Assembly: GCA_000165345.1 (NCBI GenBank)
Contig: CM000432.1
Location: 608,001-672,000 of the forward strand
DNA: 64,000 bases
Direction of reading: 5' to 3'
Part shown: positions 43,418 through 45,041 of the stretch, piece after piece
Position numbering within the stretch: position 1 is the first letter of the stretch
Layout of the letters: each line of letters begins with the position of its first letter
Made by a program: the position numbers and the translations under genes
Notes under the pieces: generated by a model
Seen by the model: the letters and a program-made list of their open reading frames with translations, nothing else
What the model was told of the DNA's origin: nothing
Database searches by the model: none

Positions 43418-44190
43418 TTAATATATACCTAGTAATTCTTCCATCTCACTGCAAATTTTTGTGCAGCAAATGTACGAAGGCATACTAACATCAGATAACG
43501 ATATATAATGAGTAAATTTCGAAGTAAATTGGCCACAGCTGTTATTAGTCGCTGAAGCTCCAATAACAAAATTAATGTTATCTGCTCCGTTGCGAATTTT
43601 AGTTGCAATCTCATTTCTACAAAACTCTTGAAGGCTTACCTTTTTTGCCATTCTGGAAAGTCCAACAACTACTTCGCTATTTGAAAGATATTCTTCTATA
43701 GAACTATTTAATAAAGAGATGAGAACTGTATTTTCTTCGTCTGGAAGCTTAAGCTCTCCATTTGGAGAGGATAAGAATTCAGAAAAAACTTTGCTGAATA
43801 CCTTAAAAGATCTTGGAACACGGAATTTCGGGCTTACCCTAATCAATTTACCATCTAAATTTAAAATCAAAATATCTGAAAGACAGCCCGACTTGCATAA
43901 TGGGCTGTCAAGTAGCATTAAAAGCGAGTTATGGATTATATCAGGACGAAATTCGTCGCTATCAATTAATTTCATGTCTCTCTCGAGTACTTTTTCTTCT
44001 GTTAGGAGCTCTTTTTTCCCATTATTTTTATTTACAAACAATGAACTATTTTTCCAGAAATTAAATAATTTTATAGAGTATGTCTAATAACTTACGCATC
44101 AATTAGAATAATATTTATCCTAATACTTGCCAACTTGGAACTCGTTGATAATTGTTTCCTAATTTTATTACGCTTAATAAGCGAATCCAT
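43418..44190 (-). CDS. EMG1/Nep1-like SPOUT methyltransferase paralogue (divergent copy), 2 exons
   Basis: Exon 2 (43418..44045) encodes [22 protein letters not shown] ... RVSPKFRVPRSF ... a clear EMG1 pattern ([22 protein letters not shown] ... [11 protein letters not shown]). The C-terminal SAM-loop region is divergent ([22 protein letters not shown] vs ISNYPLSAALTCAKLTTAFEEVWG). An upstream exon 44096..44190 (ATG = plus cat 44188-44190) encodes MDSLIKRNKIRKQLSTSSKLASIRINIILID and ends gc|GTAAGT. A 50-nt intron (44046..44095) ends AG. The junction restores ...ILIDASLFVNKNNGKKELL (compare EMG1 RLIVVLEGASLETVKVGKTYELL). Confidence 0.7.
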
Positions 44191-44253
44191 TTAAATTGCG
44201 AAAAAAAAGAAAAATTATTTATCCGTTAAAAGCGCCCTCTACTTTGTTAGAAA
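44191..44253. promoter_or_regulatory. Putative ~63-bp bidirectional promoter/5'UTR region shared by the two head-to-head EMG1/Nep1 paralogues
   Basis: Inferred start codons of the minus-strand copy (44190) and plus-strand copy (44254) are separated by about 63 bp of AT-rich sequence. No other ORF intervenes. Confidence 0.45.
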
Positions 44254-45041
44254 ATGAATTCAAATATAATTAATGTTCCAAAAGACCTTTCTGAATGGAA
44301 GGATAAAGAGAGGGTGTTTATTTTGCTTGATCGGGCGTAAGTTATTTCAATATAATTTGTAATTAATGATTTAACTTTGTTAGATTTTTGGAACTATATG
44401 AGAAGAAAGATAAATCTCTCGAGTTGTTAAACGGAATTGACCATCCGAAAAAAAAAATAGAGGAATACTGTTCATTGTATTCATCCAAGATATTTTCAAA
44501 GGAAGAAATGATTTTGAATATTAGGCCAGATATATTGCATCAGTGTCTGCTTTCACTACTGGATTCTCCACTGAATAAGAGCGGAAGATTATTGGTATAT
44601 ATTCGCACTATGAGTAATGTATTAATCGAAGTGAACCCACAGCTTTCTGTCCCAAGAAGCTTTAAAGAGTTTTCTTCATTAATGGTCAACTTACTAGTCA
44701 AGCGTAAAATTACTGCAGTTAATGGAAATACTTCTTTGATGAGAATAGTTAAGAATGATATCGACAAAATCCTGCCTGTGGGAGGAAAAAAATACGGGCT
44801 TTCACTTAATGGTACTCAGAAGAACATTAGGGCTCTGATTAATGAATTATATTCAAGTGAAGACTACAAAATACGCAATAGTTCAGTAACATTTGTGGTC
44901 GGTGCGGTCGCTTATGGCGATCCAATACAGAGTTGTGATTTTATAGAAGAAATAATTAGTATTAGTTCATACCCACTATCTGCAGCGCTCTGTTGTTCAA
45001 AAATTTGCAATGAATTCGAATATTTGTGGAAGATTTGCTAG
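44254..45041 (+). CDS. EMG1: EMG1/Nep1 ribosomal RNA small-subunit pseudouridine methyltransferase (canonical copy), 2 exons
   Basis: Exon 1 44254..44336 (MNSNIINVPKDLSEWKDKERVFILLDR + gc) ends at GTAAGT. A 47-nt intron lies at 44337..44383. Exon 2 44384..45041 encodes [47 protein letters not shown] ... FVVGAVAYG ... [25 protein letters not shown], matching EMG1 throughout ([47 protein letters not shown] ... ISNYPLSAALTCAKL..FEEVWG). Confidence 0.8.

What the first reader, a model, noticed from the sequence alone, without database searches (positions are those of the whole stretch)
43418..45041. Head-to-head pair of EMG1/Nep1 methyltransferase paralogues sharing intron position and a ~63-bp bidirectional promoter
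Two EMG1-like genes lie on opposite strands with start codons at about 44190 (minus) and 44254 (plus). Both are interrupted after the conserved (I/L)L(I/L)D-x-A codon by a phase-2 intron with a GTAAGT donor (47 and 50 nt). This indicates an inverted tandem duplication of an intron-containing gene.

The plus copy keeps canonical EMG1 motifs ([32 protein letters not shown]). The minus copy keeps the N-terminal half ([27 protein letters not shown]) but has a rewritten C-terminal SAM-loop region ([22 protein letters not shown]).

Nep1 acts as a homodimer. A canonical/divergent pair could form a heterodimer with one degenerate site, or the divergent copy may have a new function.
Basis: partly seen in the sequence, partly recalled or inferred. 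Interest (0 to 1): 0.7.

Follow-up and report, generated by a model that had tools for sequence, protein, structure and literature searches.

The report
Ancient Nep1 methyltransferase paralogue pair
Two back-to-back Cryptosporidium parvum genes (cgd4_2830 and cgd4_2840) both encode Nep1/Emg1-type ribosome-assembly methyltransferases; the odd copy belongs to an old, apparently undescribed family found across apicomplexan parasites, and the two probably work as a mixed dimer with one working active site.

Summary
The window is C. parvum chromosome 4. cgd4_2840 (plus strand, 246 aa) and cgd4_2830 (minus strand, 240 aa) are EMG1/NEP1 genes whose start codons lie 63 bp apart. Each has one phase-2 GTAAGT intron (47 and 50 nt) in the same Ala codon. 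The 2004 annotation already called them "adjacent genes paralogs", so the bare finding is known.

Three results are new:
- **The pair is old within the genus.** The arrangement and both introns are conserved in all seven Cryptosporidium species examined, including C. andersoni. Both genes are under purifying selection (dN/dS about 0.04–0.14) and both are transcribed.
- **The minus copy is not a Cryptosporidium-specific duplicate.** It belongs to a divergent Nep1-like family also present in gregarines, coccidia, piroplasms, Cardiosporidium and Rhytidocystis. The two genes were not adjacent in the three non-Cryptosporidium loci checked.
- **The losses are complementary.** The canonical copy keeps the SAM and catalytic loop but lacks the RNA-binding arginines R129 and R136. 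The divergent copy keeps R88, R129 and R132 but has a remodelled catalytic loop (Q94N, L232M/I, S233P).

In yeast the Emg1 homodimer uses only one active site. The best reading is therefore a heterodimer with one composite working site. This is inferred, not shown (confidence about 0.45).

The parts
44254..44336 (+). cgd4_2840 (canonical Nep1/Emg1), exon 1: 27 codons plus 2 nt, encoding the N-terminus and strand beta1 up to ...FILLDR(A)
   Evidence: the spliced 246-aa product is 100% identical to cpbgf_4002840 (QOY42155)
44337..44383 (+). cgd4_2840 intron: 47 nt, GTAAGT...TTAG, phase 2
   Evidence: reading through gives an in-frame stop; same position and phase in 6 other species, with lengths of 42-55 nt
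44384..45041 (+). cgd4_2840 exon 2, including the stop codon: [23 protein letters not shown] (R129S, R136E), [18 protein letters not shown]
44096..44190 (-). cgd4_2830 (divergent Nep1-like), exon 1: 31 codons plus 2 nt, with a basic N-terminus (KRNKIRK) and strand beta1 ...NIILID(A)
   Evidence: the 240-aa product is identical to QOY42156 / F0X3V7; the AlphaFold model places strand E24-32 across the exon junction, with pLDDT about 90
44046..44095 (-). cgd4_2830 intron: 50 nt, GTAAGT...ATAG, phase 2, in the Ala codon homologous to the one split in cgd4_2840
   Evidence: conserved in 6 other species at 49-56 nt; C. felis uses a GTAGGT donor
43418..44045 (-). cgd4_2830 exon 2, including the stop codon: RPDIIHN (Q94N), LLDSPLCK (N105C), FRVPRSFKVFSKV (R129 and R132 kept, R136V, G139K), [18 protein letters not shown] (P231S, L232M, S233P), ...LLGIY (W249L)
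44191..44253 (.). 63-bp spacer between the two start codons; the presumed shared divergent promoter or 5' UTR region
   Evidence: spacer lengths are 63-89 bp in five intestinal species measured and 133 bp in C. andersoni; promoter activity was not tested
44231..44237 (+). AGCGCCC, the core of the conserved block C(C/T)G(T/A)TAA(A/G)AGCGCCC; it contains the GCGC core of the E2F/DP-like motif class described for C. parvum upstream regions
   Evidence: The only occurrence in the 64-kb window. Present in the spacer of 6 intestinal species and not seen in C. andersoni. Motif class: PMC3734150. The A/T flanks are the reverse of the canonical E2F site.

Best explanation
The locus encodes the two members of an ancient apicomplexan Nep1/Emg1 paralogue pair.

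- cgd4_2840 (plus strand) is the orthologue of the universal 18S rRNA pseudouridine-N1 methyltransferase and small-subunit (SSU) processome factor. It keeps an intact SAM-binding knot and catalytic loop.
- cgd4_2830 (minus strand) is the Cryptosporidium member of a divergent Nep1-like family found across Apicomplexa. It keeps the Nep1 fold, the exact C-terminal length used in dimer contacts, and the RNA-contact residues R88, D90, D101, R129 and R132. Its SAM and active-site loop is remodelled.

Both genes are transcribed divergently from a 63-bp spacer at similar levels.

Proposed mechanism (inferred): the two proteins form a heterodimer. In it, one composite active site is functional, built from the SAM pocket, Q94 and S233 of the canonical subunit and the RNA-recognition strand (R129, R132) of the divergent subunit. 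The opposite site is degenerate on both of its halves. This would fix in the genes the asymmetry that the yeast homodimer already shows in the SSU processome.

**Shown:** gene structures, family membership, conservation, purifying selection, transcription, residue states, and the wide distribution of the paralogue.
**Inferred:** heterodimerisation, which site is active, and loss of SAM binding in the divergent subunit.
For: **Genes and fold**
- Pfam EMG1 matches for both proteins.
- The AlphaFold model of the divergent copy has pLDDT 86 and pTM 0.84. Its best PDB matches are all Nep1/Emg1 chains, with query-normalised TM-scores of 0.73-0.78.

**Conservation**
- The head-to-head pair and both introns are present in C. 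parvum, ubiquitum, canis, felis, xiaoi, ryanae and andersoni.
- dN/dS is 0.04-0.11 for the canonical copy and 0.10-0.14 for the divergent copy.

**Transcription**
- Gene-specific qRT-PCR detected both transcripts at all 7 time points. Their ratio was 0.4-2.1 and r = 0.75 over 28 samples (Mauzy 2012 supplement, PMC3305300).

**Ancient paralogue family**
- An exhaustive profile search followed by name look-up found divergent-type members in Cardiosporidium, Polyplicarium, Porospora, Rhytidocystis, Theileria, two Babesia species, Eimeria and Cyclospora.
- They share 8 derived characters, including an insertion.
- In the neighbour-joining tree all divergent-type sequences form one clade in 66% of bootstraps. 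Cryptosporidium canonical plus divergent form a clade in 0%.
- An HMM built only from non-Cryptosporidium members scores the Cryptosporidium divergent copies at 172-183 bits. Every generic EMG1 scores 165 or less, and the Cryptosporidium canonical copies score 126-132.

**Complementary residue pattern (yeast numbering)**
- Canonical copy: R129 to S/T and R136 to E in 9 of 9 species, against R in 106 of 106 of the closest non-Cryptosporidium homologues. All catalytic-loop residues are intact.
- Divergent copy: R129 and R132 kept in 10 of 10. Changed are Q94N, N105C, L232M/I/F, S233P, P231S/N, F182R/K, W249L and, in C. felis, G207E.
- G207 is also lost in the piroplasm and coccidian members of the family.

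**Structural logic**
- In yeast Nep1-RNA crystals, each active site is built from monomer A (R129, R132, R136, D101, D90) and monomer B (R88, Q94, the S233 amide and SAH) (PMC3064781).
- L232S abolishes SAM binding, and the G207, G212 and L232 backbone atoms bind SAM (PMC2241868).
- In the yeast SSU processome only one Emg1 site holds the substrate. The other is blocked by Nop14 and Sas10 peptides (bioRxiv 10.1101/175547).
- There is a precedent for a presumed SPOUT paralogue heterodimer: yeast Upa1-Upa2 (PMC8994135).
- Gregarina and Siedleckia canonical copies also carry R136E. The canonical partner therefore changed in the same lineages that hold the paralogue.
Against: - There is no physical evidence of a heterodimer, and no multimer model could be run.
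- R136 is lost from both copies, so even the proposed working site lacks a residue described as essential for loop recognition in yeast.
- The partition is imperfect. The divergent copy has about 20 changes at otherwise conserved positions, and not all of them lie in monomer-B-role residues.
- R136 is not universally conserved. It is replaced in about 21% of a wider set of 147 cluster representatives, a set biased towards divergent-like sequences. R129 is replaced in about 6% of that set.
- SAM contacts are mostly through backbone atoms, so loss of SAM binding cannot be read from sequence alone. Cryptosporidium divergent copies other than C. felis keep G207.
- The two genes are not adjacent in Theileria, Porospora or Gregarina. 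Co-regulation from one spacer is therefore not a general property of the pair.
- The qRT-PCR correlation partly reflects replicate batch effects. The Spearman correlation over the 7 time-point means is only 0.21.
- Canonical copies from Theileria, Babesia, Eimeria, Toxoplasma and Plasmodium were not retrieved, so the correlation 'paralogue present implies canonical copy changed' rests on few lineages.
Confidence: 0.45

Rival explanations
1. Two independent homodimers. cgd4_2840 alone does the classical Nep1 job in 18S rRNA maturation. The divergent family has acquired a separate role, for example as a non-catalytic RNA chaperone or assembly factor at another pre-rRNA site, or as a methyltransferase with a new substrate.
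For: - The divergent family has about 20 fixed changes at otherwise conserved positions and evolves about twice as fast.
- It is unlinked from the canonical gene in Theileria, Porospora and Gregarina.
- In yeast the essential function of Emg1 is non-catalytic (PMC2241868), so a purely structural paralogue is plausible.
- Yeast Nep1 has three candidate binding sites on 18S rRNA (PMC3064781).
Against: - It does not explain why the canonical copy lost R129 and R136 in the lineages that carry the paralogue, while the paralogue keeps R129 and R132.
- A canonical homodimer would have two RNA-recognition faces that both lack those arginines.
- Both proteins keep the same C-terminal length used in the dimer contact.
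Confidence: 0.33
2. A recent or Cryptosporidium-specific inverted tandem duplication of an intron-containing EMG1 gene, followed by rapid divergence of one copy.
For: - The two genes are adjacent and head to head, with an identical intron codon and phase.
- An earlier tree without other apicomplexan divergent members placed the canonical and divergent clades plus a metagenomic sequence together in 57% of bootstraps.
- The intron is not at this position in the Theileria, Porospora or Gregarina genes.
Against: - The pair already exists in C. andersoni.
- Divergent-type orthologues exist in gregarines, coccidia, piroplasms, nephromycids and Rhytidocystis, and share 8 derived characters including an insertion.
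- Bootstrap support for Cryptosporidium canonical plus divergent as a clade is 0% once those sequences are included.
- The reciprocal HMM ranking agrees.
Confidence: 0.05
3. The minus copy is a decaying or non-functional duplicate, or an annotation artefact.
For: It has lost several near-invariant catalytic-loop residues. Older annotations gave truncated models of 216 and 166 aa.
Against: - The reading frame and intron are intact in 7 species.
- dN/dS is 0.10-0.14.
- 79 alignment columns are invariant across the genus.
- The fold prediction is confident.
- The transcript was detected at all time points.
- The family is retained across the phylum.
Confidence: 0.02

Closest known systems
Nep1/Emg1 (yeast YLR186W, human EMG1, archaeal Nep1): SPOUT-class N1-pseudouridine methyltransferase and SSU processome factor
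   Same: - Both window proteins match Pfam PF03587 over its full length.
- The predicted fold matches Nep1 structures (query-normalised TM-scores 0.73-0.78).
- The RPDI.H and LLDSPL motifs, R88, D90, D101, R132 and the C-terminal dimer helix are conserved in both.
   Different: - Known Nep1 proteins are single-copy homodimers with R129 and R136 conserved.
- Here there are two paralogues. The canonical one has R129S/T and R136E. The divergent one has R136V, Q94N, N105C, L232M, S233P and W249L.
- No paper in the searched library mentions an apicomplexan Nep1 paralogue.
Yeast Upa1-Upa2, the SPOUT paralogue pair on the primordial pre-60S particle
   Same: Two SPOUT paralogues in ribosome biogenesis that co-purify and are presumed to form a heterodimer in place of the ancestral homodimer (PMC8994135).
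   Different: It is a different SPOUT family (SPOUT1/C9orf114-like), arose by the yeast whole-genome duplication, and acts on the large subunit. No complementary loss of active-site residues is cited for it here.
Enzyme / inactive-paralogue ('prozyme'-type) methyltransferase heterodimers such as METTL3-METTL14, Trm61-Trm6 and T. brucei PRMT1 ENZ-PRO (from general knowledge)
   Same: In the proposed model, one paralogue keeps cofactor binding and catalysis. The other has a degenerate cofactor site but contributes substrate (RNA) binding.
   Different: Those are Rossmann-fold enzymes whose heterodimers have been shown biochemically. Here the fold is a SPOUT knot, the active site is already shared between subunits, and the heterodimer is only inferred.
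Asymmetric use of the Emg1 homodimer in the yeast SSU processome
   Same: Only one of the two active sites engages nucleotide 1191. The other is occupied by Nop14 and Sas10 peptides. This is the functional asymmetry that the Cryptosporidium pair appears to have fixed in its sequences.
   Different: In yeast the asymmetry is imposed by partner proteins on two identical chains. Here it would be encoded by two different genes.

Membership tests
EMG1/NEP1 (Pfam PF03587) | Full-length match to the family HMM above the gathering score | tested here: met
   Plus copy 198.9 bits, minus copy 137.6 bits, cut-off 28.2 bits; both cover profile positions 1-197 of 197.
EMG1/NEP1 (Pfam PF03587) | SPOUT alpha/beta-knot fold with the Nep1-specific extended beta-sheet | tested here: met
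   Tested by prediction, for the minus copy only. AlphaFold2 gave pLDDT 86.3 and pTM 0.84. The top 23 Foldseek PDB hits are all Nep1/Emg1 chains, with query-normalised TM-scores of 0.64-0.78 (0.73-0.78 for the top 12) and E-values down to 7.6e-19. The knot topology itself was not inspected.
EMG1/NEP1 (Pfam PF03587) | SAM-binding loops: G207, G212, S228, Y230 and L232 backbone contacts, with an F182/P231 lid (PMC2241868) | tested here: inconclusive
   Plus copy: all present (G, G, S, Y/F, L, P). Minus copy: G207 kept (E in C. felis), G212 changed to N in the parvum clade, Y230 to V/I, P231 to S, L232 to M/I/F, F182 to R/K. SAM binding cannot be decided from sequence.
EMG1/NEP1 (Pfam PF03587) | RNA-contact arginines R88, R129, R132 and R136, with D90 and D101 holding them (PMC3064781) | tested here: not met
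   Plus copy: R129S/T and R136E in 9 of 9 species. Minus copy: R136V/I/L in 10 of 10. R88, D90, D101 and R132 are kept in both. This lowers the claim that either is a typical Nep1 enzyme, not the claim of family membership.
EMG1/NEP1 (Pfam PF03587) | Homodimer with composite active sites, and N1-methylation of pseudouridine in the helix 35 loop of 18S rRNA | not testable with these tools
   Needs biochemistry or rRNA modification mapping.
Apicomplexan divergent Nep1-like paralogue family (defined here) | Shared derived characters relative to canonical EMG1 (yeast numbering): V120K, E123R/K, V128F, R136V/I/L, G139K, L144F/Y, a K-to-S change three residues after position 144 (yeast number not verified), and an inserted segment (..SPNGEL..) | tested here: met
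   The minus copy and its Cryptosporidium orthologues carry all 8. At least 70% of 10 non-Cryptosporidium members share each one, and at most 10% of 29 canonical sequences do. Tree support is 66%. Reciprocal HMM ranking agrees.

The most novel reading that the evidence does not exclude
Apicomplexa have replaced the otherwise universal Nep1/Emg1 homodimer with an obligate heterodimer of a catalytic subunit and an ancient, catalytically degenerate paralogue. The single composite active site would use the SAM pocket of one gene product and the RNA-recognition strand of the other. Cryptosporidium alone would still keep the two genes in their original head-to-head arrangement, with the ancestral intron in both.
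Probability: 0.35. Interest if true: 0.65.

Novelty: new variant of a known kind. Interest (0 to 1): 0.5.

Why it matters
[quoted passage not shown] It is treated as a single-copy homodimer from archaea to humans, and the human D86G mutation causes Bowen-Conradi syndrome.

A second family member retained across a whole phylum, paired with a canonical copy that has lost two RNA-contact arginines, would be a lineage-specific rewiring of the SSU processome in important parasites: Cryptosporidium, Babesia, Theileria, Eimeria and Cyclospora. It would give a natural example of a symmetric enzyme's functional asymmetry becoming fixed in two genes after duplication, and a parasite-specific interface in an essential pathway.

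The idea is directly testable in tractable apicomplexans. If the two proteins prove independent, the locus is simply an old paralogue pair that has long been annotated, and it is of modest interest.

Tried and rejected
- **Recent duplication.** A first neighbour-joining tree weakly grouped the Cryptosporidium canonical and divergent clades plus a metagenomic sequence (57%). I abandoned this once divergent-type sequences from other apicomplexans were added.
- **Word-indexed searches gave a misleading picture.** Searches with the divergent copy or its profile found the divergent type only in Cryptosporidium, with a score cliff from 253 to 133 bits. Only the exhaustive HMMER search followed by name look-ups revealed the wider family.
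- **Ancient shared intron.** The Nematostella EMG1 intron lies 19 nt downstream in phase 0. Polarella was unclear. Theileria and Gregarina have introns elsewhere and the Porospora gene is intronless. There is no evidence for this intron position outside Cryptosporidium.
- **Adjacency outside Cryptosporidium.** Not found in Theileria, Porospora or Gregarina.
- **Classical E2F site in the spacer.** The conserved AGCGCCC block has the GCGC core, but its A/T flanks are the reverse of the TTTSGCGCS consensus. I report it only as a conserved GC-rich block.
- **Literature.** Searches for cgd4_2830/cgd4_2840, Cryptosporidium + Nep1, and EMG1 + apicomplexa found nothing relevant.
- **Other scans.** Rfam and tRNA scans of the window found nothing. 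Pfam found no family for the flanking 330-aa and 685-aa ORFs.
- **Fused-chain AlphaFold run.** I considered this as a proxy for a heterodimer model and did not run it. The tool returns no interface metrics, and only one job remained, so no homodimer comparison was possible.
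Full report
**1. What is in the sequence**

The window is AT-rich (30% GC). The plus-strand product is 100% identical to C. parvum cpbgf_4002840, so this is C. parvum chromosome 4.

- Plus gene: exon 1 44254-44336, intron 44337-44383 (47 nt), exon 2 44384-45041; 246 aa.
- Minus gene: exon 1 44190-44096, intron 44095-44046 (50 nt), exon 2 44045-43418; 240 aa.

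Both introns start with GTAAGT, end in TAG and are phase 2. They split the Ala codon that follows the beta1 strand (..LLDR|A, ..LID|A).

Both proteins match Pfam EMG1 (PF03587) over the whole profile, with E = 7.8e-59 and 4.7e-40. They are 35% identical to each other. Both hit yeast, human and archaeal Nep1/Emg1 structures by sequence.

An exact-sequence look-up shows that the spliced models are the currently deposited proteins of cgd4_2840 and cgd4_2830. The 2004 annotation (EAK87930 and EAK87931) already reads 'Mra1/NEP1 like protein, involved in pre-rRNA processing, adjacent genes paralogs'. The bare observation is therefore correct but not new. No paper in the searchable library discusses it.

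**2. Conservation within the genus**

The head-to-head EMG1 pair is present in C. ubiquitum, C. canis, C. xiaoi, C. felis, C. ryanae and the gastric species C. andersoni.
- In every species the canonical gene has its intron after CDS nucleotide 83. The divergent gene has its intron after nucleotide 95 (113 in C. andersoni). All are phase 2 and lie in the homologous codon.
- Intron lengths vary (42-56 nt) and are not multiples of three. This comparative evidence supports real splicing.
- The C. felis divergent gene is annotated as a 166-aa fragment, but the locus holds a full gene with a GTAGGT donor.
- Nei-Gojobori dN/dS is 0.04-0.11 for the canonical copy and 0.10-0.14 for the divergent copy. 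Both are under purifying selection, and the divergent copy evolves about twice as fast at non-synonymous sites.
- 79 columns are invariant among seven divergent orthologues.

**3. Expression and the spacer**

In the supplement of Mauzy et al. 2012 (PMC3305300), gene-specific primers lie in exon 2 of each gene. Both transcripts were detected at all seven time points. Geometric-mean ratios of the two were 0.38-2.1, and r = 0.75 over 28 samples, although the rank correlation of the seven time-point means is weak.

The ATG-to-ATG spacer is 63-89 bp in five intestinal species measured and 133 bp in C. andersoni. It contains a conserved block, C(C/T)G(T/A)TAA(A/G)AGCGCCC, in six intestinal species. 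AGCGCCC occurs only once in the 64-kb window. It carries the GCGC core of the E2F/DP-like motif class that is over-represented upstream of C. parvum genes (PMC3734150), but with atypical flanks. A shared divergent promoter is plausible and untested.

**4. The divergent copy is not a Cryptosporidium invention**

Word-indexed searches suggested a genus-restricted protein. The exhaustive HMMER search of 1.84 billion cluster representatives, using a profile of the divergent copies, returned a set of weak hits (70-129 bits) just below the Cryptosporidium members. These hits have the same peculiar residues.

Name look-ups identify them as proteins of:
- Cardiosporidium cionae
- Polyplicarium translucidae
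- Porospora cf. gigantea
- Rhytidocystis pertsovi
- Theileria annulata (TA18685)
- Babesia duncani and B. gibsoni
- Eimeria media
- Cyclospora cayetanensis

They are mostly labelled hypothetical or uncharacterised.

Four lines of evidence tie them to the Cryptosporidium divergent copies:
- **Alignment.** They share motifs such as F-R-V/I-P-R-x-F/W-K-V/L-F-x-K-V and DFLSS..G.L.
- **Shared derived characters.** There are 8, including V120K, E123R/K, V128F, R136V/I/L, G139K, L144F/Y and an inserted segment. These are absent from 29 canonical sequences.
- **Tree.** In a neighbour-joining tree, all divergent-type sequences form one clade in 66% of 300 bootstraps. A clade of Cryptosporidium canonical plus divergent appears in 0%. 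In the tree drawn, the Cryptosporidium canonical copies sit next to the Gregarina, Siedleckia and related canonical sequences, but that grouping has almost no bootstrap support (0.01).
- **Reciprocal HMM.** An HMM built only from the non-Cryptosporidium members scores Cryptosporidium divergent copies at 172-183 bits. Every generic EMG1 scores 165 or less, and the Cryptosporidium canonical copies score 126-132.

The duplication therefore predates the divergence of the sampled apicomplexan lineages.

The two genes are not neighbours in Theileria, Porospora or Gregarina. The intron at the beta1 Ala codon is also absent from those genes, and the Nematostella intron lies 19 nt away in another phase. 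Either Cryptosporidium alone retains the original inverted-tandem arrangement and an ancestral intron in both copies, or the intron was gained or homogenised within its lineage. This remains open.

**5. Residue-level anatomy (yeast numbering)**

I compared both copies with the 106 closest non-Cryptosporidium EMG1 sequences.

| Position or feature | 106 closest homologues | Canonical copy | Divergent copy |
|---|---|---|---|
| RPDI.H, Q94, LLDSPLN | conserved | kept | Q94N, N105C |
| R129 | R in 106/106 | S/T in 9/9 species | kept |
| R132 | R in 106/106 | kept | kept |
| R136 | R in 106/106 | E in 9/9 species | V/I/L |
| G207 | conserved | kept | kept (E in C. felis) |
| G212 | conserved | kept | N in the parvum clade |
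| P/G231, L232, S233 loop | conserved | kept | S/N, M/I/F, P |
| F182 (pocket lid) | variable (V in 62, F in 20 of 106) | L/V/I | R/K |
| W249 | conserved | kept | L |

- The divergent copy also keeps R88, D90 and D101. It has about a dozen further changes at conserved positions.
- In piroplasm and coccidian members of the divergent family, G207 is lost.
- In a wider set biased towards divergent-like sequences, R136 is replaced in about 21% and R129 in about 6% of representatives. These arginines are therefore not absolutely universal.
- Among canonical-type sequences, R136E recurs in Gregarina, and R129T with R136E recurs in Siedleckia.
- The AlphaFold2 model of the divergent copy is confident (pLDDT 86, pTM 0.84). 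Its best PDB matches are all Nep1/Emg1 chains, with query-normalised TM-scores of 0.73-0.78 for the top 12 hits.
- Both copies end exactly three residues after position 249, as yeast Nep1 does. In yeast the C-terminal carboxylate contacts S228 and N229 of the partner subunit.

**6. Mechanistic reading**

In the yeast Nep1-RNA crystal structures, each active site is composite. Monomer A supplies R129, R132, R136, D101 and D90 to read the UUCAAC loop. Monomer B supplies R88, Q94, the S233 backbone amide and the SAM pocket (PMC3064781). SAM is held by backbone atoms of G207, G212, S228, Y230 and L232 under an F182/P231 lid. L232S abolishes SAM binding. Catalysis is dispensable in yeast, whereas the protein itself is essential (PMC2241868). 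In the yeast SSU processome, only one of the two sites holds nucleotide 1191; Nop14 and Sas10 peptides block the other (10.1101/175547).

Mapped onto this, a Cryptosporidium heterodimer would have two very different sites:
- **Site 1 (divergent subunit as A, canonical subunit as B).** It retains everything except R136.
- **Site 2 (canonical subunit as A, divergent subunit as B).** It is damaged on both halves: R129S/T and R136E on one side, and Q94N, S233P, L232M and a remodelled pocket lid on the other.

This complementary pattern is what the division-of-labour heterodimer model predicts. Two independent homodimers do not predict it. Yeast Upa1-Upa2 is a precedent for a presumed SPOUT paralogue heterodimer.

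The model remains an inference. No interaction, SAM-binding or activity data exist. R136 is missing from both subunits. The canonical partners in most other apicomplexans were not examined.

**7. Verdict**
The genes are real paralogues with a shared intron, and a heterodimer is plausible. The duplication is ancient rather than local, and the plus copy is not fully canonical.
- The adjacency of the paralogues is already known from annotation.
- The phylum-wide divergent Nep1-like family and the complementary loss of active-site residues appear undescribed in the literature I could search.
- I rate it a new variant of a known kind, with interest 0.5.

Noticed in passing
window 43230-43397 (+): A 55-aa ORF with a tail-anchor-like hydrophobic segment gives a weak Pfam Tom22 hit (E = 0.006, below the cut-off). 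Its stop codon is only 20 bp from the stop of the convergent minus EMG1 gene. C. andersoni has a syntenic spliced 76-aa gene also flagged Tom22 (weak). It may be a mitosome import-receptor remnant.
   Followed up: partly
L006 (C. felis) about 1666-2430, minus strand: The C. felis divergent EMG1 is annotated as a 166-aa fragment. The locus nevertheless encodes the missing exon 1 and an intron at the conserved codon, with a GTAGGT...CAG donor and acceptor. This orthologue also has G207 replaced by E (FVIEGS).
   Followed up: partly
window 44216-44237 and the equivalent spacers in L002-L006: The block C(C/T)G(T/A)TAA(A/G)AGCGCCC is conserved in the ATG-to-ATG spacer of six intestinal Cryptosporidium species and was not seen in C. 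andersoni. AGCGCCC occurs only once in the 64-kb window.
   Followed up: partly
L009 446-1132 and L010 415-1101 (JGI samples 3300031231 and 3300031469): An intronless canonical-type EMG1 (P0152) from an unidentified organism carries R129T and R136Q. In the tree it sits among the apicomplexan canonical copies. It probably comes from an unsampled gregarine or other Cryptosporidium relative.
   Followed up: partly
window 45246-47303 (+): A 685-aa ORF (cgd4_2850) contains an HPD-bearing segment (..LLLFTHPDKILEKRMKAKANEAY..) that resembles a J-domain. Pfam reports no family at E <= 0.1.
   Followed up: partly
N-termini of the two window proteins (exon 1 of each gene): The canonical copy keeps the (V/I)P(K/R)xL motif found upstream of beta1 in other eukaryotic EMG1 proteins. 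The divergent copy instead has a basic motif (KRNKIRK in C. parvum), of which N8, K9, R11 and K12 are invariant across the genus. It could be a nuclear-localisation signal carried by only one partner.
   Followed up: no
proteins P0333, P0376 and P0389: Long EMG1 homologues from unidentified organisms, otherwise canonical (W249 and G207 kept), have R136 replaced by L. The 'invariant' R136 has therefore been lost independently outside Apicomplexa.
   Followed up: no
window 1-64000: No tRNA gene and no Rfam family above the gathering score anywhere in the window.
   Followed up: yes
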